Source: an uncultured Acidimicrobiia bacterium (GTDB lineage Bacteria; Actinomycetota; Acidimicrobiia; Spongiisociales; UBA5794). Taken from it: a stretch of 64,000 nucleotides of DNA. Both the position numbers and the translations under genes were made by a program. The stretch's first letter is position 1. Each line of letters begins with the position of its first letter. Positions 6,681-42,229 of the stretch are shown piece after piece. Under the pieces are notes generated by a model. The model worked only from the letters and a program-made list of their open reading frames with translations, did no database searches and had not been told where the DNA came from. Location of the stretch: positions 373,495 to 437,494 of the forward strand of contig CAWBYA010000008.1 in assembly GCA_963792895.1 (NCBI GenBank). Reading direction: 5' to 3'.

Positions 6681-7864
6681 CGGACTGTGGCCCCGTAGCG
6701 GCGCCCAAGCTGGCGAGCCCCGATGTGCGTGAGGGCGACGAGCGCCGCGAAGCGGCTGCGCCGCGCAACGATGACGCCCATCGGCGCGCCGATCCGCTCG
6801 TCGAGCCTGCTTCTGGCCCCCGCAACATCGCCTGCGTCGACCGCAACCTGCGCCATTCTCACGATGTCATCTACCTCCTCTGTGTCGAATCGACCGCGCA
6901 GCTCGACTGCGAGGAGGCCGCCGACCTCGGCTGCCGTCGCTGCAATCAGGTCCTCAATGCGGCACAACGCATCTTCGCCCGGCGAGCCGGCGTCGGCATC
7001 GATCGCGGCCAAAGCCGATTCTCTCGTCGCCGTCCAACGCTCATCGAGGCCGATCGCAGCGCCTTGCCACACGCCGGACGACTCTCCCACCATTTGAACC
7101 AAGCCTGCGATGTCCGACAGGAGCTTGCCATGAGCGGTGCGTTTTCTGTCGATCTGCGTGCCGAGGAAGGCCACCAGCGGCTCCACCGCCGCTGGGGAGC
7201 CGGACGGCGGATCAGCCGCGAGAGGAAACACGATCGGATCGAAGTACCCACGATCGATGAGGGTCTCACGGACGCTGGAGAGCACGTTGGCGACGTCGTC
7301 GCCGGCGATACGATCGACCTTGTTGAGCACGAAGACGGTCTGGTCGGCATACCTGGCGAGAGGCGTCAGAAAGTCACGGTGGAGCGTTGAGTCGTGGTAC
7401 TTCTCCGGGTCGAGGACCCAGATCACGGCATCGACGTTGGCGATCACACGTTCCGTCGTGCGGCGGTGATGGCCCTCCACGGAATCCATGTCGGGGAGGT
7501 CGATGAGCGTGAGGCCGGGGAGCCGGGCTTGTGTCCTCAGGTCGGTGACACCCAACTCCGTGAGGAGATGCCCCGCAGAGGAGCTCGCATCCTCGGCAAC
7601 CCAGGCCAGCGGCTCGTCCGTATGCGGCCGGAGCCGGCTCACCGACGCAATCCTCTCGGCTGCGATTGCGTTGAGGAGGCTGGACTTGCCCGTCCCGGTG
7701 CCTCCCGCCAGAGCCACGAACAGCGTTGATCCGAGACCCCCAACCCGACGTCGCATGAGGTCGAGGGTTGTTCGGGCACGGGCGATATCTGCCGGCGGGG
7801 CGATCCCCTCGCCGCTCTCGACGAGCTGGTCGAGGGCGTCGTACAGCTCCGAGATGTCACGCAT
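6677..7864 (-). CDS. dynamin-family / YeeP-like GTPase (second of an overlapping pair)
   Basis: P-loop LAGGTGTGKSSLLNAI, G4 NKVD, long helical C-terminal region; 8-nt overlap with upstream paralogous GTPase. Confidence 0.55.
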   Translation of the reverse strand: MRDISELYDALDQLVESGEGIAPPADIARARTTLDLMRRRVGGLGSTLFVALAGGTGTGKSSLLNAIAAERIASVSRLRPHTDEPLAWVAEDASSSAGHLLTELGVTDLRTQARLPGLTLIDLPDMDSVEGHHRRTTERVIANVDAVIWVLDPEKYHDSTLHRDFLTPLARYADQTVFVLNKVDRIAGDDVANVLSSVRETLIDRGYFDPIVFPLAADPPSGSPAAVEPLVAFLGTQIDRKRTAHGKLLSDIAGLVQMVGESSGVWQGAAIGLDERWTATRESALAAIDADAGSPGEDALCRIEDLIAATAAEVGGLLAVELRGRFDTEEVDDIVRMAQVAVDAGDVAGARSRLDERIGAPMGVIVARRSRFAALVALTHIGARQLGRRYGATVR

Positions 7865-9341
7865 TGGCGGCCTCGGCTGGGTCTGTCGCTTCTGGGTCTG
7901 GAGTCGCCATCAGCTCGCTACCGATGCTCTCGACGTTGAGTGGGCCCGTGAGCTCTGTCAGCTCCGCAATCGCGTCCGGCCCCGGATACTGCCCGAGCTG
8001 GACCTGGAACCGTTGCTCATCGTCGCGGACGATCTCGGCAGCCATCTCAGCCAGCCTGCGCTTCGCGGCCGCCACAGCTGGATCGACACCCCCCTTGAGC
8101 CTGCGCCGGATACGCCACTTGATCCTGGCCGGGTCACCGAGCGCCCGCTGCATGACGGCCATACGAGTATCTCTCGCTCGCTCGGGCGACATCGCCCGCT
8201 TGGACTGCTCCTCGACGACGGCAGCGACCTCGACCTCCCATCGCAACAGACGGATGCGAGCGTCCGTTGCTGCACCGGCGGCGTGACGCCACAGTCCCTG
8301 ACCTTGGCTCTCGAGGAGCTCGCCGCCGCCGGGCATCCGGAACCAGGCGGACGCAGTACGGCCTGCGGCTGCACCGATCTCTCGTGTGATGACGGCGGCC
8401 AGCCGCTCGGCACGTACCGGCCAGGCGGTCTCATTGGACGATGCCAAAGCGGCGGCCACCAACTCGGCAACCGCCTCCGCGGTTCTCTCATACTCGCTGT
8501 TCGCTGCAGCGGCTAGATCGGCCCGTGCCGTTCGCAATGCGTCAAACGGCCGAACGAGACCTGCTGCGATCCGCAGAATGGCGCCTTCGCGGGCTGCGAT
8601 AGCGTCGTCGAGCATCCGGTCACGAGCCGGGCCGTGGAGGTCGACCAGCGCTTCGTCGAGGCCGCCCAGCCCGGTGGTGTCTTCTCCAATCGTGAAGATC
8701 GGCAGCGAGCGCCCGGCGGCGGCGAGACGTGCCTCGAAGTCGGCAACGACCTCGTCCCCGGTCCCGATCGTCCGGTTGAGCACCACCCAGCACGGGATTC
8801 CGAGGCCGTCCAACCAGTCCAGGAGCGACCATGTGGCGTTGTCGGCATAGCGAGCAGGCGTGACGACGACGATCACCAGATCGGCGAGGCTGAGCGCGCG
8901 GTGACTCGGGGCACCGACGCTGTCCGCGGGCATGTCGATGAGGGTCGCCCGCTCCGTGATGATCCCGTGGTCGCGACGGAAGCGCACCGGGGCCGCCGAG
9001 GCGCGCATCCTGCGCTCGACGTCCTTGCGCGTACCTTCCTCGAGGCGAGTGGAGATGATTGCGACAGGGGACGTGGTCGTGGGTCGCGTCGCACCCTCGG
9101 GGCTGTGCTGCTCGCTCGTGATCCGGTTGGCGAGATAGGACTTGCCCGCACCGCCCGGACCCGCAATCGCAACGATGAGAGGCGTGTCGGGCCGGTCGAG
9201 ACGGGGGAGGATGTAGCCCGTGACGCTCCGGACGACGTCGCGCCGCGCCTGGTCGGCTGCGCGATCCGGGAGCGGCATGCCGTCGAGCAGCTGCGCCAGG
9301 CGTTTGAGCCGTACCCTCTCCTCCGACAACACTGCGCGCAT
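7857..9341 (-). CDS. dynamin-family GTPase (first of an overlapping pair)
   Basis: P-loop IAGPGGAGKSYLANRI, VVLNRT, helical C-terminus; start set at atg 9339-9341 (MRAVLSEERVRL) because upstream part of the 821-aa ORF runs through mca in another frame. Confidence 0.55.
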   Translation of the reverse strand: MRAVLSEERVRLKRLAQLLDGMPLPDRAADQARRDVVRSVTGYILPRLDRPDTPLIVAIAGPGGAGKSYLANRITSEQHSPEGATRPTTTSPVAIISTRLEEGTRKDVERRMRASAAPVRFRRDHGIITERATLIDMPADSVGAPSHRALSLADLVIVVVTPARYADNATWSLLDWLDGLGIPCWVVLNRTIGTGDEVVADFEARLAAAGRSLPIFTIGEDTTGLGGLDEALVDLHGPARDRMLDDAIAAREGAILRIAAGLVRPFDALRTARADLAAAANSEYERTAEAVAELVAAALASSNETAWPVRAERLAAVITREIGAAAGRTASAWFRMPGGGELLESQGQGLWRHAAGAATDARIRLLRWEVEVAAVVEEQSKRAMSPERARDTRMAVMQRALGDPARIKWRIRRRLKGGVDPAVAAAKRRLAEMAAEIVRDDEQRFQVQLGQYPGPDAIAELTELTGPLNVESIGSELMATPDPEATDPAEAANA

Positions 9342-35422: not shown

Positions 35423-36451
35423 TCAGTAGGCAGCGAGCGATCTCGCAGCCGCCTCGATCTTGACAGCCGAGGGGCGGTATGCGGCCTCGAGGGGAGGGCT
35501 GAAGGGGACGGGCGCGTCGAGCCCCCCGAGGCGCAGCGGCGGGGAATCCAAGAGATCGAACCACCGCTCTGCGATCTCAGCCGCGATCTCGGCTCCAACG
35601 CCGAGCATCCGGTTCGCCGAATGGACTATCAGCACCTTGCCGGTTCGTCGCACGGTCGCAGCAACCGCATCCCAGTCCAGCGGCTTCAAAGAGCGGAGAT
35701 CCAGCACCTCGGCGTCGATGCCGTCGGTGGCCATCGTCTCCGCAGCGGTGATCGCCTCCCGAACCTGGGCGCCGTAGGTGATGATCGAGAGGTCGTTTCC
35801 CGGCCGCACGACCGCTGCGGTGCCGATCGGCACGACGTGCTCGCCGGCCGGGACGTGTCCTTTCACGGACCGGTAGAGCGGTTTCGGCTCGAAGTAGATC
35901 ACCGGGTTTGGGTCTCGGATCGATGCGACGAGCAGCCCCTTGGCGTCGGCCGGGTTGGACGGCGACACCACCTTGAGTCCCGGCGTATGGACGAACCACG
36001 CTTCGGGATTCTGGCTGTGGAAGGGACCGCTCGAAATGCCCCCGTCGCTCGGCGCCCGGATCACCCACGGCACGGCGGCACCCCATCGGTAGTGGTTGGT
36101 GGCGGCGTACTGGACGATGCTGTCGAACGCGGAGCTGATGAAGTCGGCGAACTGTATCTCGACCACGGGCCGCAACCCCATGAGCGCCATCCCGGTGGCC
36201 ATACCAACGAAGCTCAACTCGGCGAGTGGCGTGTTGCGGACCCGATGATCGCCGAACTCGGCGGCCAGGCCGTCGGTGACCTTGAAGGCCCCACCGAACT
36301 CGCCGCCGACATCTTCGCCGATGATGCACACGTTCTCGTCGCGTGCCATCTCGTGTCGCAGCGCCTCGCGAATCGCCTCGAGGAACGTCAGCTCCCGCCC
36401 CTTCGGTTGCGCACCCGGTCCCCCATCGACGACATCGCCGACGCCGGTCAT
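35423..36451 (-). CDS. 2-oxoacid dehydrogenase E1 component beta subunit
   Basis: 342 aa; transketolase-like pyrimidine-binding and C-terminal domains (IIGEDVGGEFGGAFKVTDGLAAEFG). Confidence 0.85.
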   Translation of the reverse strand: MTGVGDVVDGGPGAQPKGRELTFLEAIREALRHEMARDENVCIIGEDVGGEFGGAFKVTDGLAAEFGDHRVRNTPLAELSFVGMATGMALMGLRPVVEIQFADFISSAFDSIVQYAATNHYRWGAAVPWVIRAPSDGGISSGPFHSQNPEAWFVHTPGLKVVSPSNPADAKGLLVASIRDPNPVIYFEPKPLYRSVKGHVPAGEHVVPIGTAAVVRPGNDLSIITYGAQVREAITAAETMATDGIDAEVLDLRSLKPLDWDAVAATVRRTGKVLIVHSANRMLGVGAEIAAEIAERWFDLLDSPPLRLGGLDAPVPFSPPLEAAYRPSAVKIEAAARSLAAY

Positions 36452-37470
36452 GGTGCAAACACCCTCTCCCCAACCTCCTCAGGGTTGGGGAACGGCGCCG
36501 CCTCGGCTTCGGCAACCGCCTCTGCTATCTCACCCTGGGCCCTCTCGTCGATCCCCCGCAGCACCTCCGCGGGGGTACCCCGGGTCACCAGGCGGCGCGC
36601 ATACGCCGCTACCGGATCACGCGCCTCCCACTCGGAGAGCATCGCGTCGGGCACGTATTCGGCGCCGTCGTGGATGGCATGCCCCAGCATGCGCATCGTC
36701 TTGGCCTCGATCAGGCTCGGCCCACCGCCCGACCGAGCCCGCACGAGCGCTTCTTGCGTGGCCAGGTGCACGGCCTCGACGTCGTTGCCGTCGACGATGA
36801 TCCCTGGGATCCCATATCCGGCTGCACGGTTGGCGATGTCGGGTACGACCGTCTGCTCGCTGAGCGGCGTCGAATAGGCGTACTGGTTGTTCTCGACCAC
36901 GAGGACGAATGGTGCCTGGTACACGGCGGCCATGTTCACCGTCTCGTGCCAGCCCCCGGTGCTGCTCCCGCCGTCGCCGATGAAGGTGAGTGCGGCTCGG
37001 GGCTCGCCCCGCATCTGGAAAGCCATGGCAGCGCCGAGCGTCACCGGCATCGACATCGGGAGGTGACTCACGAACCCGATGATGCCGAGCGAGAGGTCGC
37101 CAAGACCATGCAGATTGGCGTCACGTCCCCGCGTCACGCCGGTCTCCTTCCCGAGCAGGTTGCCGAAGATGCGAGCAGGGCTCATCCCTCGCACCAGGTA
37201 GCACCCGAGATCACGATGCATCGGTGCGACGACGTCGTCGGGACCGAGGGCGAAGCCTGCGCCGACGGCAACGGCCTCGTGCCCTCGCTCGCTGAAGGCC
37301 CCGCCGAGGCCGCGGCCTTGTTTCCACATCGCGACCATCCGGTCGTCGAACGCCCGAGTCAGGCGCATCCAGTAGTACACCTGCAGCGAGTCGTCGTGCG
37401 AGAGCGGGCTCAGCAGATCAGGGTTCCATTCGGTCATGGGGAGCGAGCCTACCCAGGACCACCACGGCAC
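36448..37470 (-). CDS. 2-oxoacid dehydrogenase E1 component alpha subunit (TPP-dependent)
   Basis: YRMMRLTRAFDDRMVAMWKQGR, GDGGSSTGGWHE TPP motif; start may be internal Met at 37437. Confidence 0.85.
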   Translation of the reverse strand: MPWWSWVGSLPMTEWNPDLLSPLSHDDSLQVYYWMRLTRAFDDRMVAMWKQGRGLGGAFSERGHEAVAVGAGFALGPDDVVAPMHRDLGCYLVRGMSPARIFGNLLGKETGVTRGRDANLHGLGDLSLGIIGFVSHLPMSMPVTLGAAMAFQMRGEPRAALTFIGDGGSSTGGWHETVNMAAVYQAPFVLVVENNQYAYSTPLSEQTVVPDIANRAAGYGIPGIIVDGNDVEAVHLATQEALVRARSGGGPSLIEAKTMRMLGHAIHDGAEYVPDAMLSEWEARDPVAAYARRLVTRGTPAEVLRGIDERAQGEIAEAVAEAEAAPFPNPEEVGERVFAP

Positions 37471-37529: not shown

Positions 37530-38045
37530 ATGGAGGGGTGGTTCTTCGTCGTCGCTGCGCTCTTGATCGGCGCCGGCTTCCTGAAGGTTCGGGACCCTGC
37601 GCCCACGCAGGGCGCCCTCGCCGCGGCATCACTGCCGTCGGGGGCATGGCCGGCGCTCACCCTCGGTGTCGGCGAGATCGTCGTCGGCTCGTACGGGCTG
37701 CTCGCCGGCGGACGGCTCGGCGGTGTCGCGGTTGCCGCCATCTACGGAGGATTCGCGGCTTTCGTTCTCGTCGCGCTGCGACGGAAGCTGCCACTGCAAT
37801 CGTGCGGCTGTTTCGGCAAGGACGACACCCCCCCGTCGCCGGTCCATGCCGTGACCAACGTTCTCGCCGCCGTGGGCGCCATCGGGTACGCACTCACGTC
37901 TGCGCCGTCCCTGCCGGAAGTGATCGCCTCCCAGCCGGGATGGGGTTTCCCCTACCTCGTGTTCCTCGCAGTGGGCGTCTACGCGCTCTACCTGATGCTC
38001 GCCGAGCTGCCCCGGCTTCGCCTGATCGTCCGGGGGCCGGCGTGA
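37530..38045 (+). CDS. MauE-like (methylamine-utilisation protein E family) membrane protein
   Basis: 171 aa, four TM helices, conserved CGCFG motif between TM2 and TM3. Confidence 0.65.
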   Translation: MEGWFFVVAALLIGAGFLKVRDPAPTQGALAAASLPSGAWPALTLGVGEIVVGSYGLLAGGRLGGVAVAAIYGGFAAFVLVALRRKLPLQSCGCFGKDDTPPSPVHAVTNVLAAVGAIGYALTSAPSLPEVIASQPGWGFPYLVFLAVGVYALYLMLAELPRLRLIVRGPA

Positions 38046-38866
38046 GCACCCGGCTGGTTGAAGCAACCGCCGGCTTCCTCGGTCGAAGGACCAGCAGGCG
38101 CGGCTTCCTGCGTCGCGCGGCCATCGTCGGCTCGGCGCTCGCTGCCGCCCCCGCAGCGTATGTCCTCCGTCCGACCACCGCGTATTCGGCGATCGTCAAG
38201 ACCTGCAGCGACTGCCCGTCCGGATCGCGATGTTGCGGCGGATACACCGAGTTCTGCTGCGCCATGTCCGGGGTCAACACGTGCCCTCCGGGCAGTGTCA
38301 TCGCAGGCTGGTGGCGGGCCGAGGGCTCCGGCTACTGCGATGGCGGGTCCCGCTACTACATGGACTGCAACACCGCAGACTGCGGGGGCTGCGGCTGTGG
38401 GTATTCGGGCACGTGCTCGGACTCATGCGTCGACTGCAGCTGTGGATGCGCCAACAACGACTGCAACCTGAGGCAGGCGTGTTGTGTCCGGTTCCGGTAC
38501 GGCCAATGCAACCAGCACATCGAGTGCGTCGGCCCGATCATCTGCCGGGTCGTCACCTGCGTGCCGCCGTGGGAGTGGGATTCGTCGTGCTCGAAGGCCG
38601 ACGCCCGCGACGACAACACCCGATTCCACGATGCGGCATGTCTCCGGCCGTCGCTCGTGCGCCAGGCGTACCCCGGCGTCGTGTCGGGCGCCACCTTCGA
38701 GCTGCGCGAGTCACTCAGCACAGGCATCCCTACGGAGAAGTACGACTACGGGCTGCCGGGCGACATCCCAATCATGGCGGACTGGTCCGGCTCGGGCCTG
38801 GAGACGGCCGGACTGGTGCGGGGGCGCGCCATGGGGCCCTGGACGCTGGTGCGCTCACGTGGCTGA
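38042..38866 (+). CDS. Tat-exported cysteine-rich protein with C-terminal FG-GAP repeat (possibly 5-prime part of a longer frameshifted gene)
   Basis: GTG start overlapping mauE-like stop; twin-arginine signal SRRGFLRRAAIVGSALAAAPAAYV; 26 Cys in about 150 residues; C-terminal YDYGLPGDIPIMADWSGSG repeat. Confidence 0.5.
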   Translation: MSTRLVEATAGFLGRRTSRRGFLRRAAIVGSALAAAPAAYVLRPTTAYSAIVKTCSDCPSGSRCCGGYTEFCCAMSGVNTCPPGSVIAGWWRAEGSGYCDGGSRYYMDCNTADCGGCGCGYSGTCSDSCVDCSCGCANNDCNLRQACCVRFRYGQCNQHIECVGPIICRVVTCVPPWEWDSSCSKADARDDNTRFHDAACLRPSLVRQAYPGVVSGATFELRESLSTGIPTEKYDYGLPGDIPIMADWSGSGLETAGLVRGRAMGPWTLVRSRG

Positions 38867-38874
38867 TCCGCCAA

Positions 38875-39363
38875 GTGCCCGGGCCAGGCGACCCCGACCT
38901 CGTCGTGGAGTACGGAACCGCAGGCGACGTGCCCGTCGCCGGTGATTGGAATGGCGACGGCGTCGACACGATCGGGGTCGTCCGGGGCAACCGCTGGCTG
39001 CTGAGCAACCACAACGCCGGGGGCACGGCAGACATCGATATCGTGTTCGGCGAGCCCGGCGACATCCCTGTGGCGGGCGACTGGAACGGCGACGGTGTCG
39101 ATACGCCGGGCGTAGTCCGGGGAACACGGTGGATACTGCTCAACGGCTTCGACCCAGCGGGCCCTCGGGTCGAATTCGACTTTGGGCCTGCCGACGGCGT
39201 CCCCATCGTCGGCGACTGGACCGGGGCAGGGCGCCATCTGCCGGGGCGCTTCGTCGCCGGGTCTTGGCAGCTTCGGCTGTCGCTGTCGGACGGACCGGCG
39301 AACAGCACCTTTTCGTTCGGCGACCCGAACGGGGTGCCGGTGGTGTGGGGCCGGGTGCCATGA
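38875..39363 (+). CDS. FG-GAP repeat protein (likely continuation of preceding gene across a 1-nt frameshift)
   Basis: three tandem units GD-x-PVAGDWNGDGVDT-x-GVVRG-x-RW; no signal peptide of its own; first in-frame GTG at 38875. Confidence 0.45.
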   Translation: MPGPGDPDLVVEYGTAGDVPVAGDWNGDGVDTIGVVRGNRWLLSNHNAGGTADIDIVFGEPGDIPVAGDWNGDGVDTPGVVRGTRWILLNGFDPAGPRVEFDFGPADGVPIVGDWTGAGRHLPGRFVAGSWQLRLSLSDGPANSTFSFGDPNGVPVVWGRVP

Positions 39364-40070
39364 CCGCTCTCGTCGTGTTGGAAGCGGTCGTGATCGTGCT
39401 GCTCGTCGTGCTCGTCGCCGGGCTGCTGCGCAGCCACGCCGAGATTCTCCGCAGACTCCACGAGCTCGGCGCGGGCGAAGCCGAGCCAGACCAGGCTGCG
39501 GCGATGGTGGCCGCACCACGCGGCTCGCAGCCGCTCGCCGCCACCGAACTGGCCGGGGTCACGCCCGGCGGGGGCGCCGCTTCAGTTGCGCTTGCCGGGT
39601 CGCGCGGTCTGGTGCTCGTGACGTTCCTCACGTCCGGCTGCTCCTCGTGCCGTCTGTTGTGGCGCGGGCTCGCCAACCCGATTGCGATGCCGCGCAAAGA
39701 CATCCGCACCGTGGTCGTCACGAAAGGCCCAGAAGAGGAGAGCCCGGCCACGATCCGCAACCTCGCCCCTTCGGATGCGATCGTCATCATGTCCAGTCCT
39801 GCGTGGGATGCGTTCCGGGTGCCGGTCGCGCCCTATTTCGCCCTCGTCGACGCCGGGCGCGGCCATGTCATCGGCGAGGGTGCTGCGGGATCGTGGCCCC
39901 AAATCGCGGAACTCGCCGGACGAGCACTGGGTGACGCCACCGGCGATTCCCGTCTCCACGCCGGGACGGCACAACGTCTCGAGGACACCGACGAAGAGCT
40001 GCGCCGGGCCGGTGTCGAGCCCGGCGACCCGAGCTTGTGGGCGCCGCCATCGAACGGTGGTGGACGGTGA
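39360..40070 (+). CDS. TlpA/MauD-like membrane-anchored thioredoxin-fold protein
   Basis: N-terminal TM helix, redox motif LTSGCSSC, thioredoxin-fold spacing; ATG overlaps upstream stop (ATGA). Confidence 0.6.
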   Translation: MTALVVLEAVVIVLLVVLVAGLLRSHAEILRRLHELGAGEAEPDQAAAMVAAPRGSQPLAATELAGVTPGGGAASVALAGSRGLVLVTFLTSGCSSCRLLWRGLANPIAMPRKDIRTVVVTKGPEEESPATIRNLAPSDAIVIMSSPAWDAFRVPVAPYFALVDAGRGHVIGEGAAGSWPQIAELAGRALGDATGDSRLHAGTAQRLEDTDEELRRAGVEPGDPSLWAPPSNGGGR

Positions 40071-40144
40071 CGATCACATCGCTGGGAGTGCTCGTCGCGG
40101 TGTTCGCAGCACTCCGATCGCATTGGTCGCCGTGAGGGGAGTCG

Positions 40145-40729
40145 ATGCTCTCGAGCATCCACCCGCTCGGCGAGCGGGCACGTCACAACCGATGGGTGCT
40201 CACGGTGACTGCCTTCTCGGTGGGCGCTATCGGAGCGGCCGGCGCCGTCGGGGCCGTCCTCGGCATCGCGGGTTCGTACGTGCTCGGCGGACCGACGGGT
40301 AGAACGGTCGCCATCATCGGGGTGGCGGCTCTTGCGGCGGCGGGCCTCGACCTCCTCGGCGCCCGGCCGCCCGGACCCCACCGCCAGGTCAACGAACGCT
40401 GGATCGGCGCGTATCGAGGATGGGTGTACGGCGCAGGATTCGGCGCCCAACTCGGTGCGGGGGTTGCCACGTACATCGTGACATGGGGTGTGTGGGTCGT
40501 CCTCGCTGCCGAGGTGGCCAGTGGATCTGGTGCTGCAGGGGCTGTGGTCGGGCTTGCGTTCGGTGTTGGCCGGTCGCTCCCCGTCGTCGCGGGCCGGTGG
40601 ATCAACACGCCGAGTCGACTGGGCTCCTCGTCGGCTGTCATGCGCCGGCTCGCAGGTCCTGCGTTCCGCCTGATGGCCGCCGCCACTGCCGTTGCAGGCA
40701 TCGCCGGGATCTTCGCGGGAGTGGTGTGA
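40145..40729 (+). CDS. polytopic membrane protein, unknown function
   Basis: 194 aa, Gly/Ala-rich, 4-5 predicted TM helices, no Cys. Confidence 0.45.
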   Translation: MLSSIHPLGERARHNRWVLTVTAFSVGAIGAAGAVGAVLGIAGSYVLGGPTGRTVAIIGVAALAAAGLDLLGARPPGPHRQVNERWIGAYRGWVYGAGFGAQLGAGVATYIVTWGVWVVLAAEVASGSGAAGAVVGLAFGVGRSLPVVAGRWINTPSRLGSSSAVMRRLAGPAFRLMAAATAVAGIAGIFAGVV

Positions 40730-40733
40730 CGTG

Positions 40734-41231
40734 GTGCGCCTGAACAGCGGCGGTGTCGGGTTCGAGTTGCCGTCAGGGTGGGAGGGTCAGATCGACCCGG
40801 GCTCAGGCACATGGCGAGAGTCCCCTCGCATCGGGACGACGGAACCACTCCCCGAGACGCATCCGGACGGAGCGGTGCGACGCGTTGTCGCCCACGTCGC
40901 CAACTTCCCGTTGCCCCCTGGGCGAGGAGACTTCGGCAACGGGGCAGTCCAGACGATGCGAGCGGGCGACGTCTTCGTCACATTGTTCGAATACGACCCG
41001 GAATCGGCGCGGACGCCGCTCTTCCGCCACGAGGGACTCCCCGAGGTCGGCGCCGGCGACTTCGAACCCGCCGCTCTCCAAAAGCCGGTGCCGGGCGGCT
41101 CCGCGATGCAGCGCTTCTTCCGCACCGCCGGGCGTGCGTTCTGCCTCTATGTCGTCGTCGGCAGCCACATCGACCGCGCCGACGTCGTGCCGACGATTCG
41201 CGAACTGTTGGCCGGCGTGGAGATCACGTGA
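40734..41231 (+). CDS. hypothetical protein
   Basis: GTG start immediately after upstream stop; 166 aa; strong third-position GC bias. Confidence 0.4.
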   Translation: MRLNSGGVGFELPSGWEGQIDPGSGTWRESPRIGTTEPLPETHPDGAVRRVVAHVANFPLPPGRGDFGNGAVQTMRAGDVFVTLFEYDPESARTPLFRHEGLPEVGAGDFEPAALQKPVPGGSAMQRFFRTAGRAFCLYVVVGSHIDRADVVPTIRELLAGVEIT

Positions 41232-42229
41232 AGCGGTGGGTCGCGCTTGTCGTGGTCGGAGCCCTCGCCACCGCCGTCGCGGCAGGCCCCCTCGTTGCGG
41301 AGCCCGCTGAAGCGGTCGTGGTGGACTCGCGGTTCACGGACGACGACTGGAACATCCACGAGCCCAACATCAACGCCATCGCCGCGGCGAGCATCACCTT
41401 CGGCTGCAATCCACCGACCAACGACCACTACTGCCCCGATCGCCCGGTCACCAGGGGCCAGATGGCGGCTTTTCTCACCCGTGCATTCGGCTACACCGAG
41501 CGGCTCGCCGACCCCTTCACCGATGACGACGGATCGATCTTCGAAGCCGACATCGAACGTCTGGCCGCAGCAGGCGTGACGCTCGGCTGCAATCCGCCTG
41601 CCAACACGAGGTACTGCCCGGACGATCCAGTCTCGCGGGCGCAGATGGCGAGCTTCCTCGCTCGTGCCCTCGACCTCCAACCGTTGGCGGCCGGGCCGTT
41701 CCAGGACATCTCGGGCAACATCCACAGCTTCACCATCAACGCAATCGCCGCCGCCCGCATCACCTATGGATGCAATCCTCCGGCCAACGACCTCTACTGC
41801 CCGAACGACCTCGTGACCCGCGCCCAGATGGCGAGTTTCCTGGCGCGGGCGCTCGACCTGTCGCCGATCCCGAGCCGCCTCTCGCTCCGCCCGGGATCGG
41901 CATGCGACCGGGTGCGCACCTCGTGCACTGCGACGCTCGCCATCCCCGCCGGCCGCACATTCGAGCTCCGCGAGGGCTGGTACAACGTGCTCCCGTTTGC
42001 CCCGGGCGAGGAAGCCGCCTTCAGGGGGCCGGATACCACCTTCACTGCGACGCTCGACGGGACGCCGCTGTCAATGGCGACACTCGACACCGCATCCACC
42101 ACCATGGCAACGCGTGAGTGGCACGCTGTGATCGCAAGCGTCGGTGCAGGGACCCACGTGCTACGCGGCGTCTGGCAGTGGGACGGCACCACCAACCTCA
42201 CCGTCGTGGTGACCATCGTCGCCGGGTAG
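41228..42229 (+). CDS. secreted protein with three SLH-like (S-layer homology) domains
   Basis: signal peptide; three approximately 60-aa repeats F-x-D-x4-H/F-x3-I-x2-A/L-A-x3-T-x-GCNPP-x-N-x2-YCP-x-D-x-V(T/S)R-x-QMA-x-FL-x-RA; GTG overlaps upstream stop. Confidence 0.6.
   Translation: MKRWVALVVVGALATAVAAGPLVAEPAEAVVVDSRFTDDDWNIHEPNINAIAAASITFGCNPPTNDHYCPDRPVTRGQMAAFLTRAFGYTERLADPFTDDDGSIFEADIERLAAAGVTLGCNPPANTRYCPDDPVSRAQMASFLARALDLQPLAAGPFQDISGNIHSFTINAIAAARITYGCNPPANDLYCPNDLVTRAQMASFLARALDLSPIPSRLSLRPGSACDRVRTSCTATLAIPAGRTFELREGWYNVLPFAPGEEAAFRGPDTTFTATLDGTPLSMATLDTASTTMATREWHAVIASVGAGTHVLRGVWQWDGTTNLTVVVTIVAG

What the first reader, a model, noticed from the sequence alone, without database searches (positions are those of the whole stretch)
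38042..38560. Extremely cysteine-rich Tat-exported domain with weak resemblance to amine-dehydrogenase light chains
After the RR signal the mature region reads KTCSDCPSGSRCCGGYTEFCCAMSGVNTCPPGSVIAGWWRAEGSGYCDGGSRYYMDCNTADCGGCGCGYSGTCSDSCVDCSCGCANNDC... Tat export implies folding or cofactor insertion in the cytoplasm. The T/N-C-PPG-(S/T) segment followed by tryptophans recalls the TNCPPGTKLA...W region of methylamine dehydrogenase light chains, where two Trp form the TTQ cofactor. Alternatively the CxC/CGC density suggests a metallothionein-like or copper/iron-sulfur binding module. Either reading would make this an undescribed protein class. The resemblance is too weak to call.
Basis: inference. 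Interest (0 to 1): 0.6.

Follow-up and report, generated by a model that had tools for sequence, protein, structure and literature searches.

The report
Cysteine-rich surface protein with Mau helpers

Summary
GTG 38042 opens a gene with a twin-arginine (Tat) leader followed by a ~150-residue domain holding 26 cysteines.

The window copy lacks one G (G5 at 38820-38824). Assemblies 99.8% identical have G6 and an intact 440-aa protein, whose C-terminal half is FG-GAP-like repeats.

The domain defines a large unnamed family: 467 clusters at 50% identity, at least 591 hits in GTDB species genomes, and no Pfam or NCBIfam model. Relatives mostly carry cell-wall-binding C-termini (LGFP, CWB2, SLH).

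In about 80 of 82 loci the gene lies in one cassette: MauE, this gene, a MauD homolog (hhalign E 5e-14), a MauF homolog (E 3e-11) and an unknown 166-aa protein.

The resemblance to TTQ (tryptophan tryptophylquinone) light chains is weak but reproducible:
- A CPPG...W profile match lies about 5 sd above shuffled controls.
- The WW pair and an Asp are conserved.

It fails the tests for a TTQ enzyme. PF02975 does not match, there is no MauG, heavy chain or electron acceptor nearby, and the second Trp is Tyr in 17% of relatives.

Best reading: a disulfide-knotted, wall-anchored, light-chain-like module folded by MauE/D/F, with its own function unknown.

Side finding: the MauF-like gene appears to encode selenocysteine.

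The parts
37530..38045 (+). MauE-family membrane protein with a CGCFG (CXC) motif. It is the presumed DsbB-like disulfide generator.
   Evidence: Pfam PF07291, E 1.3e-14, above the gathering score. hhalign against P. denitrificans MauE gives E 7e-8. It lies directly upstream of the target in 77 of 82 loci.
38042..38191 (+). Tat leader of the target protein (about 50 residues, SRRGFL motif, ends ...TAYSA).
   Evidence: TIGR01409 scores above its cut-off. The leader, including its n-region, is conserved across the family.
38192..38650 (+). Cysteine-rich domain (26 Cys). Invariant residues are N, CPPG, G-W-W, R, D, F-R-Y-G-Q and R. This is the flagged feature.
   Evidence: AF2 pLDDT is 88.8. Fold hits are to TTQ light chains.
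38651..39363 (+). Linker plus four to five FG-GAP-like repeats (GDxPvvGDWnGdG...RGxxWxL). This is the C-terminal half of the same protein, read after correcting the frame.
   Evidence: Homologs are about 440 aa and colinear. FG-GAP_3 matches 5 of 83 relatives; other relatives carry LGFP, CWB2 or SLH instead.
38820..38824 (+). G5 homopolymer holding a one-base deletion that breaks the frame in this window only.
   Evidence: DNA alignment with L012, L001 and L013. L092 and L093, 99.8% identical, have G6.
39360..40070 (+). MauD homolog: membrane-anchored thioredoxin-fold protein with GCSSC (CxxC). Its start overlaps the target's stop as ATGA.
   Evidence: hhalign of the family against a MauD alignment gives prob 98.2, E 5.1e-14 over 176 columns; cross-controls give E 0.5-1. 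Present in 80 of 82 loci.
40067..40729 (+). MauF-like membrane protein with an in-frame UGA. Its start GTG overlaps the MauD-like stop as GTGA.
   Evidence: hhalign against P. denitrificans MauF gives prob 97.2, E 3.1e-11 over 155 columns. The upstream extension is conserved in frame.
40133..40135 (+). UGA read as a candidate selenocysteine codon in the motif WSP-U-GES.
   Evidence: TGA at this place in 48 of 54 loci and Cys in 5. Twenty-five database homologs of 216 aa read WSPCGES. MauF has WSPCG at the aligned place.
40141..40177 (+). Two hairpins just 3' of the UGA, a candidate bacterial SECIS (selenocysteine insertion sequence).
   Evidence: 98.5% of cells are paired across 48 sequences and 3 pairs show compensatory change. 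Synonymous variation is confined to the loops. The hairpins are degraded in the Cys forms.
40731..41231 (+). Conserved 166-aa protein of unknown function (called w179 in the notes). It has no signal peptide.
   Evidence: Present in 75 of 82 loci. No family or PDB sequence match.
41228..42229 (+). Secreted protein with three SLH-like repeats, each carrying a GCNPP...YCP cysteine pair. Its start overlaps the w179 stop as GTGA.
   Evidence: homologs follow w179 directly in the listed loci, with hits in 47 of 82 loci. A precomputed faint SLH hit is on record.

Best explanation
The flagged stretch encodes the functional head of a ~440-aa cell-surface protein.

Shown:
- It has a Tat leader.
- It has a ~150-residue domain with 16-26 conserved, mostly even-numbered cysteines.
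- It is translationally coupled, through 4-nt overlaps, to homologs of MauE, MauD and MauF.
- It has a C-terminal repeat region that relatives replace with cell-wall-binding modules.

Inferred mechanism:
- After Tat export the cysteines are oxidised to up to 13 disulfides by the membrane-anchored MauD-like thioredoxin.
- MauD is re-oxidised by MauE, a DsbB-like enzyme with a CXC active site.
- The MauF-like protein, with a single Sec or Cys at its first membrane boundary, acts as a third redox partner, for example in isomerisation or relay.
- The mature protein stays on the wall through its repeats.

The domain is most likely a distant homolog of the N-terminal half of the TTQ-dehydrogenase light chain. 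That half is the CPPG...W hairpin followed by Asp-Cys. The domain is not a TTQ amine dehydrogenase. It is a light-chain-like module kept together with the disulfide half of the mau toolkit and re-used, alone, as a wall-anchored binding or catalytic domain whose ligand is unknown.
For: - Gene, leader and cysteine conservation.
- Family size and lack of annotation.
- Cassette conservation in 82 loci: MauE 77, MauD-like 80, w179 75, MauF-like at least 53.
- 4-nt overlaps between the genes.
- MauE fused to the Cys-rich protein: one ORF carries both in four loci (L069, L080, L081, L083); P0129 shows the fusion; Pfam finds MauE in 2 of 83 relatives.
- MauD and MauF homology by profile comparison, with negative cross-controls.
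- MauE as a DsbB-like disulfide former with a CXC site, and MauD as its DsbA-like partner: bioRxiv 10.64898/2026.03.05.709764.
- Wall-binding C-termini in relatives (LGFP 32, CWB2 6, SLH 3 of 83).
- Motif match beyond composition.
- WW 128/128 and Asp 127/128 at the places that align with beta-Trp57 and beta-Asp76.
Against: - Only about 60 residues align.
- The Pfam and NCBIfam light-chain models and an hmmsearch of PDB sequences find nothing.
- The 95.6% hhalign probability obtained with the leader included is mostly generic Tat-signal similarity. NosZ and DmsA leaders score about as well.
- MauE is a generalist, and only about 10% of MauE-bearing species have MauA. Its presence alone therefore does not imply a light-chain relative.
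- Disulfide formation, surface anchoring and the redox role of the MauF-like protein are inferred, not shown.
Confidence: 0.6

Rival explanations
1. It is a true quinoprotein. One of the invariant tryptophans is converted to a TTQ- or CTQ-like quinone (CTQ is cysteine tryptophylquinone), cross-linked to another Trp, Tyr or Cys. The domain would then oxidise amines or another substrate at the cell surface, using a maturation route that does not need MauG.
For: - WW is invariant (128/128) and aligns with the quinone-bearing beta-Trp57.
- An Asp is conserved at the place of the catalytic beta-Asp76.
- An aromatic residue (W or Y) is conserved in 127 of 128 relatives at PPW.
- The fold hits are to TTQ light chains.
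- The Tat leader and the MauE/D/F context match MauA.
- An unexplained conserved partner, w179, could be a maturation factor.
Against: - No MauG, heavy chain, amicyanin or cytochrome was found in 82 loci +/-10 kb or in the 64-kb window.
- The PPW Trp is Tyr in 17% of relatives.
- The Cys that ties the Trp108 segment to the hairpin in MADH (Cys78) has no counterpart, because the family has DC-N rather than DCC.
- The light-chain profiles do not match.
- The active site of known TTQ enzymes lies at the light/heavy chain interface, and no heavy chain is present here.
Confidence: 0.12
2. The domain is an unrelated, convergent cysteine-knot module that happens to be a client of a MauE/MauD/MauF disulfide system. 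The likeness to light chains would be the shared look of small disulfide-rich beta-hairpin proteins plus a short CPPG motif.
For: - All similarity scores are sub-threshold.
- MauE systems serve many clients unrelated to MauA.
- MauE/MauD genes were already seen next to other Cys-rich products in Streptomyces (PMC7794033).
- One Vip3 toxin fragment outranks the light chains.
Against: - Both PDB40 light-chain representatives that appear in the hit lists (2agl_D and 3c75_M) surface at the top from two models only 47% identical to each other, out of 48,164 chains.
- Foldseek independently ranks four light chains first of 350,542 chains.
- The motif score exceeds all 150 composition-matched shuffles.
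- By my own reading of the hhalign alignment, six consecutive Cys keep order and similar spacing with MADH Cys23-77.
- All three light-chain-specific helpers, not just MauE, are present.
Confidence: 0.24
3. The cysteines bind metal, making this a metallothionein-like copper or zinc store or an iron-sulfur module inserted in the cytoplasm before Tat export.
For: High CxC/CGC density, and Tat export, which often carries cofactor-loaded proteins. No tool result supports it.
Against: - No metallothionein, ferredoxin or other metal-binding family matches at E<=10.
- The CGC-rich segment is the most variable part and is deleted in many relatives.
- The Cys number is even in 83% of relatives.
- The operon encodes disulfide-forming proteins rather than metal chaperones.
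Confidence: 0.04

Closest known systems
Light (small, beta) subunit of TTQ-dependent methylamine and aromatic amine dehydrogenases (MauA; Pfam PF02975; PDB 2agl_D, 3c75_M, 1mda_L)
   Same: - Long Tat leader.
- Small, very disulfide-rich domain.
- G-x-N/T-x-C-P-P-G-(S/T)...W hairpin followed by Asp-Cys.
- Top structural neighbours in three searches.
- Encoded next to MauE, MauD and MauF homologs.
   Different: - No profile match.
- Only about half the fold aligns.
- No conserved second Trp and no CC pair after the Asp.
- No MauG, MauB, electron acceptor or MauJ nearby.
- About 30 extra residues of Cys-rich insert.
- Fused to wall-binding repeats.
- Found in Actinomycetota rather than Proteobacteria.
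MauE/MauD oxidative-folding pathway (a DsbB/DsbA analogue; bioRxiv 10.64898/2026.03.05.709764)
   Same: MauE with a CXC(FG) motif and a membrane-anchored CxxC thioredoxin-fold MauD homolog, encoded beside a cysteine-rich exported client.
   Different: Here the pathway is hard-wired to one client family through 4-nt gene overlaps and occasional MauE-client fusions. It also includes a MauF-like third member that usually carries selenocysteine.
MauE/MauD-containing candidate RiPP clusters in Streptomyces (RiPP: ribosomally made, post-translationally modified peptide; decRiPPter, PMC7794033)
   Same: An actinobacterial MauE, with or without MauD, next to a gene product with at least 8 cysteines, in genomes without the rest of the mau cluster.
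   Different: Those products are short precursor peptides. This one is a 440-aa Tat-exported, multi-domain surface protein with a confidently predicted globular fold.
Modular Gram-positive surface proteins (a functional head plus LGFP, CWB2 or SLH wall-binding repeats)
   Same: N-terminal functional domain followed by interchangeable wall-binding modules.
   Different: The head domain is a new cysteine-rich family, exported by Tat rather than Sec.

Membership tests
Methylamine/aromatic amine dehydrogenase light chain (PF02975, TIGR02659) | Match to the curated family profile | tested here: not met
   No hit at E<=10 for the 274-aa ORF or the frame-corrected 440-aa protein. P. denitrificans MauA (2e-53; 2.8e-120) and a Thermomicrobium light chain (9e-9) match as controls. 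A profile of the family against PDB sequences finds no light chain.
Methylamine/aromatic amine dehydrogenase light chain (PF02975, TIGR02659) | Light-chain fold | tested here: inconclusive
Methylamine/aromatic amine dehydrogenase light chain (PF02975, TIGR02659) | Two conserved tryptophans that form TTQ (beta-Trp57 and beta-Trp108) | tested here: inconclusive
   A Trp aligned with Trp57 is invariant (WW, 128/128). No residue could be aligned with Trp108. The only later conserved Trp (PPW) is W in 105, Y in 22 and V in 1 of 128 relatives.
Methylamine/aromatic amine dehydrogenase light chain (PF02975, TIGR02659) | MauG (di-haem enzyme that completes TTQ) encoded with it | tested here: not met
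   No phmmer hit at E<=0.01 in 82 loci +/-10 kb or in the window. The window holds no plausible CxxCH gene. Whole genomes could not be searched.
Methylamine/aromatic amine dehydrogenase light chain (PF02975, TIGR02659) | Heavy-chain (MauB) partner and a dedicated electron acceptor (amicyanin, azurin or cytochrome c) | tested here: not met
   No MauB or amicyanin homolog in the window or the loci. The C-terminal repeats are unrelated to MauB (hhalign E 0.75).
Methylamine/aromatic amine dehydrogenase light chain (PF02975, TIGR02659) | Tat leader and adjacent MauE, MauD and MauF accessory genes | tested here: met
   TIGR01409 above its cut-off. MauE by Pfam, E 1.3e-14. MauD E 5e-14 and MauF E 3e-11 by hhalign.
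MauE (PF07291), upstream gene | Profile match and a CXC motif followed by F-G | tested here: met
   55.1 bits against a cut-off of 27. The sequence reads SCGCFG. The motif is as described in bioRxiv 10.64898/2026.03.05.709764.
MauD (TIGR02661-type accessory thioredoxin), downstream gene | N-terminal membrane anchor, thioredoxin fold with CxxC, and full-length similarity to MauD | tested here: met
   hhalign prob 98.2 over 176 columns, including the anchor and the CxxC. No NCBIfam or Pfam model reports it at E<=1 or E<=10, so it is a distant homolog and not an equivalog.
Bacterial selenoproteins (the MauF-like gene) | In-frame UGA aligned with Cys in orthologs, with conserved sequence on both sides | tested here: met
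   48 loci carry TGA, 5 carry TGC or TGT, and 25 database proteins read WSPCGES. The upstream transmembrane helix and the WSP motif are conserved in frame.
Bacterial selenoproteins (the MauF-like gene) | SECIS hairpin directly 3' of the UGA | tested here: inconclusive
   Two hairpins are 98.5% paired with 3 compensatory pairs, loops alone vary, and the hairpins are lost in Cys forms. No Rfam model matches. SelB binding cannot be tested here.
Bacterial selenoproteins (the MauF-like gene) | Sec machinery (tRNA-Sec, selA, selB, selD) in the same genome | not testable with these tools
   There is no tRNA-Sec among the two tRNAs of the 64-kb window. The rest of the genome is not available.
Metallothionein, granulin, chitin-binding and other known Cys-rich domains | Match to any curated Cys-rich family profile | tested here: not met
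   There are zero Pfam families at E<=10 for the protein. No Pfam family matched the Cys-rich region of the first member at E<=0.001, and the 16 families matched by the 83 relatives are mostly wall-binding or repeat domains, not known Cys-rich families.

The most novel reading that the evidence does not exclude
The domain is a new kind of protein-derived-cofactor enzyme. It would be a stand-alone, wall-anchored relative of the TTQ light chain in which an invariant Trp of the WW pair is turned into a quinone or another cross-linked cofactor, without MauG and without a heavy chain. The conserved unknown protein (w179) and/or the selenocysteine-containing MauF-like protein would take part in its maturation.
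Probability: 0.12. Interest if true: 0.9.

Novelty: new variant of a known kind. Interest (0 to 1): 0.66.

Why it matters
- It gives a name and a context to a large, unannotated family of surface proteins that most sampled Acidimicrobiia seem to carry.
- MauE, MauD and MauF travel as a unit with a light-chain-like client far outside methylotrophs. This suggests that the folding half of the mau cluster is older and broader than methylamine oxidation.
- The Sec/Cys alternation in the MauF-like protein marks the WSP(C/U)G residue as redox-active. That is a direct, testable clue to the function of MauF, which to my knowledge has not been assigned a function. It would also add a membrane-protein family that I could not find in the table of the 2026 selenoproteome review by word search (PMC13188914).
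- Public gene calls mis-handle three genes here. The target starts at Met75 and is broken by a homopolymer error in this window, and the MauF-like gene is cut at the UGA.

Tried and rejected
- Sequence search of PDB with the single protein and with a family profile found only Tat-leader noise.
- hhalign with the leader included gave 95.6% probability. I discounted it after controls showed that unrelated Tat leaders (NosZ 31.8, DmsA 23.8) score like single MauA leaders.
- Mature-only hhalign against proteobacterial MauA and against the Thermomicrobium light chains never extends past the ~17-34 columns around CPPG...WW.
- The C-terminal repeats and w179 were compared with MauB, MauJ and MauG. 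They are unrelated.
- w179 was compared with Pfam, NCBIfam and PDB sequences. Nothing was found.
- An Rfam scan around the UGA found nothing relevant.
- The AlphaFold-database fold library was not available, so annotated structural neighbours outside PDB could not be listed.
- I considered that the frameshift might be programmed. I rejected this because homologs and near-identical assemblies are in frame.
- I considered that the MauF-like gene is simply split into two ORFs, with GGNGAG serving as a ribosome-binding site. This is less likely given the exact UGA/Cys alignment, the conserved upstream peptide, the GTGA overlap at the extended start, and hairpins that are specific to the UGA forms.
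Full report
**What is in the sequence**

The quoted peptide is real. A + strand gene starts at GTG 38042, inside the stop of the upstream gene (GTGA). It reads MSTRLVEATAGFLGRRTSRRGFLRR...AYSA / IVKTCSDC....

The leader passes the curated cut-off of the twin-arginine (Tat) signal model TIGR01409.

The mature domain, about 38192-38650, holds 26 cysteines.

The ORF as listed stops at 38866. This is an artefact of one missing G in a G-run at 38820-38824:
- The best homologs are about 440 aa and colinear with frame A, then with the +2 frame.
- A DNA alignment with three related loci shows a single-base gap.
- Two assemblies 99.8% identical to the window have G6 and an intact 440-aa ORF ending at the position equivalent to 39363.

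The C-terminal half consists of four to five repeats of the type GDxPvvGDWnGdG...RGxxWxL, which are FG-GAP-like.

**How big and how known the family is**

- A word-indexed search found 840 proteins. The best 120 listed are unnamed, 'hypothetical' or 'Tat signal domain-containing', without Pfam domains, and the named ones come from Acidimicrobiia MAGs.
- A profile of the domain alone, run against 1.84 billion representatives, found 467 clusters at 50% identity; 183 of them scored E<=1e-30. The domain almost always follows the leader directly.
- One genome per GTDB species gave at least 591 hits, and the best 80 are nearly all labelled Acidimicrobiia or other Actinomycetota.
- Neither Pfam nor NCBIfam reports any family for the protein at E<=10.
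- Among 83 diverse relatives the C-terminal parts are LGFP repeats (32), CW_binding_2 (6), FG-GAP_3 (5), SLH (3), DUF4214 (2) and a few others. Most of these are cell-wall-binding or surface modules, so the cysteine-rich domain is the constant, functional head.
- In 128 representatives the invariant or near-invariant residues are N, CPPG, G-W-W (128/128), R, D (127/128), F-R-Y-G-Q (128/128) and R (128/128).
- Fifteen Cys columns are at least 90% conserved, and 106 of 128 proteins have an even Cys count.
- The CGC-rich middle segment is variable in length and often absent.

**Context**

The gene sits in a tightly packed operon:
- MauE family, 37530-38045 (Pfam E 1.3e-14, motif SCGCFG).
- The target, 38042-39363.
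- A membrane-anchored CxxC protein, 39360-40070.
- A polytopic membrane protein, 40067-40729.
- A 166-aa protein without relatives (w179), 40731-41231.
- A secreted protein with three SLH-like repeats, each with a GCNPP...YCP cysteine pair, 41228-42229.

The junctions are GTGA, ATGA, GTGA, a 1-nt gap, and GTGA.

Across 82 related loci, MauE is present in 77, the CxxC protein in 80, w179 in 75, the membrane protein in at least 53, and the SLH-like protein in 47. In four loci a single ORF carries both MauE and the Cys-rich protein. P0129 shows such a fusion, and Pfam finds MauE in 2 of 83 relatives.

Profile-profile comparison shows two clear homologies:
- The CxxC family is a full-length MauD homolog (prob 98.2, E 5.1e-14, 176 columns, including the anchor and the CxxC).
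- The membrane protein is a MauF homolog (prob 97.2, E 3.1e-11, 155 columns).
- Cross-comparisons serve as negative controls (E 0.5-1).

No homolog of MauG, MauB, MauJ, amicyanin or MauM/N occurs in the window or in any locus +/-10 kb, and the window has no credible CxxCH gene.

From my own knowledge of the mau clusters, mauF, mauE and mauD are the three genes whose loss specifically removes the small subunit. A 2026 preprint shows that MauE replaces DsbB in E. coli, uses a CXC active site, probably works through MauD- or DsbA-like partners, and occurs mostly in species without MauA (bioRxiv 10.64898/2026.03.05.709764). MauE/MauD next to Cys-rich products has also been noted in Streptomyces (PMC7794033).

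**Is the domain related to TTQ light chains?**

Against:
- The light-chain profiles PF02975 and TIGR02659 do not see it, although they see P. denitrificans MauA and a divergent Thermomicrobium light chain.
- hmmsearch of the family profile against PDB sequences finds nothing.
- The attractive hhalign result with the leader included (95.6%, E 1e-8) is largely generic Tat-signal similarity, since unrelated leaders score alike.

For:
- Without the leader, hhalign still aligns G-x-N-x-CPPG-x4-G-WW with GS-x-T/S-x-CPPG-x6-W. The score is 27.9 against 13.4 +/- 2.9 (maximum 23.0) for 150 column-shuffled MauA alignments of identical composition.
- Foldseek ranks four TTQ light chains first among 350,542 chains, at E 1-2.

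Each score is individually sub-threshold. The recurrence of one small family at the top of three searches is not plausibly chance.

Reading the hhalign alignment, six successive cysteines keep order and roughly keep spacing with MADH Cys23, 29, 36, 46, 61 and 77. The second W falls on beta-Trp57 and the conserved Asp-Cys on beta-Asp76-Cys77. This residue mapping is my inference from the alignment, not a structural superposition.

I put shared ancestry of the N-terminal half at about two in three.

**Is it a TTQ enzyme?**

The evidence says no:
- There is no MauG, no heavy chain and no electron acceptor.
- No residue is alignable with Trp108.
- The only later conserved Trp is Tyr in 17% of relatives.
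- There is no Cys78 equivalent.
- The heads are fused to interchangeable wall anchors rather than paired with a propeller subunit.

A MauG-independent cofactor cannot be excluded. I give it about 12%.

**Most likely mechanism**

The steps are marked as shown or inferred in the Best explanation section. In outline: Tat export; oxidation of up to 13 disulfides by the MauD-like protein, which MauE recycles to the quinone pool; a third redox step by the MauF-like protein; and retention at the wall by the repeats. The ligand or reaction of the N/WW/R/D/FRYGQ/R surface remains unknown.

**Side finding: a candidate selenoprotein**

The MauF-like gene is annotated in public data as a 187-197-aa protein starting MLSSIHPLGER (94 of the best 120 database hits). 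In the window the frame continues upstream through TGA 40133-40135 to a GTG that overlaps the MauD-like stop. This adds a transmembrane helix and the motif RSHWSP-U-GES.

- The same in-frame TGA occurs in 48 of 54 loci, and 5 loci have Cys at that place.
- Twenty-five database homologs of 216 aa read RGNWSPCGES.
- P. denitrificans MauF has TWSPCGYSS at the aligned place.
- Two hairpins directly follow the UGA (40141-40177). They are paired in 98.5% of cells over 48 sequences, with three compensatory pairs.
- Synonymous variation is confined to the loops.
- The hairpins decay in the Cys forms.
- Rfam has no matching model.
- A 2026 review table of prokaryotic selenoproteins contains no occurrence of 'Mau' or 'transmembrane' by word search (PMC13188914).
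- The Sec machinery could not be checked. There is no tRNA-Sec in the window.

**Verdict**

The light-chain hunch is partly right as evolutionary and structural kinship, supported above all by the MauE/D/F context. The TTQ and metal readings are not supported. The family is undescribed, and the operon adds a probable new selenoprotein.

Noticed in passing
window 40067-40729 (UGA at 40133-40135; hairpins 40141-40177): The MauF-like membrane protein has an in-frame UGA in the motif WSP-U-GES. The UGA aligns with Cys in orthologs and in Paracoccus MauF, and conserved hairpins follow it. It is a probable new selenoprotein family. Public annotations truncate it at the next Met and name it TauE/SafE, CcdA, MFS or hypothetical.
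   Followed up: yes
window 38820-38824: A one-base deletion in a G-run (G5 against G6 in 99.8%-identical assemblies L092 and L093) breaks the target gene in this window only. It is most likely a homopolymer assembly error.
   Followed up: yes
L092 2119-3219, L093 2119-3219; also P0084: Public gene calls start the intact ortholog at Met75 (366 aa), which cuts off the Tat leader and the first third of the Cys-rich domain. The GTG start that overlaps the MauE stop is missed.
   Followed up: partly
window 40731-41231: A conserved 166-aa protein without signal peptide or any detectable relative follows the MauF-like gene in 75 of 82 loci. Its role is unknown.
   Followed up: partly
window 41228-42229: A Sec-signal protein with three SLH-like repeats, each containing a GCNPP...YCP cysteine pair. 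It is translationally coupled to w179 (GTGA) and has homologs in 47 of 82 loci, directly after w179 in those listed. It may be a second client of the disulfide system.
   Followed up: partly
P0129; loci L069, L080, L081, L083: A subclade encodes MauE fused in frame to the Cys-rich protein. The RR-leader segment is retained as an internal membrane-spanning segment.
   Followed up: partly
L005 (Thermomicrobium roseum plasmid NC_011961) 2717-3169 and about 7850-8310: There are two short, divergent light-chain-like genes, one of them unannotated. They lie near a 596-aa MauE/DoxX fusion protein and several hypothetical proteins. One reads CPSGTQEGGAWWAC, with a WW pair as in the window family.
   Followed up: no
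window 35423-37470 (- strand): Divergently oriented genes for the alpha and beta subunits of a 2-oxoacid dehydrogenase E1 flank the operon. This neighbourhood is kept only in the closest relatives (2 of 82 loci), so it is not part of the cassette.
   Followed up: partly
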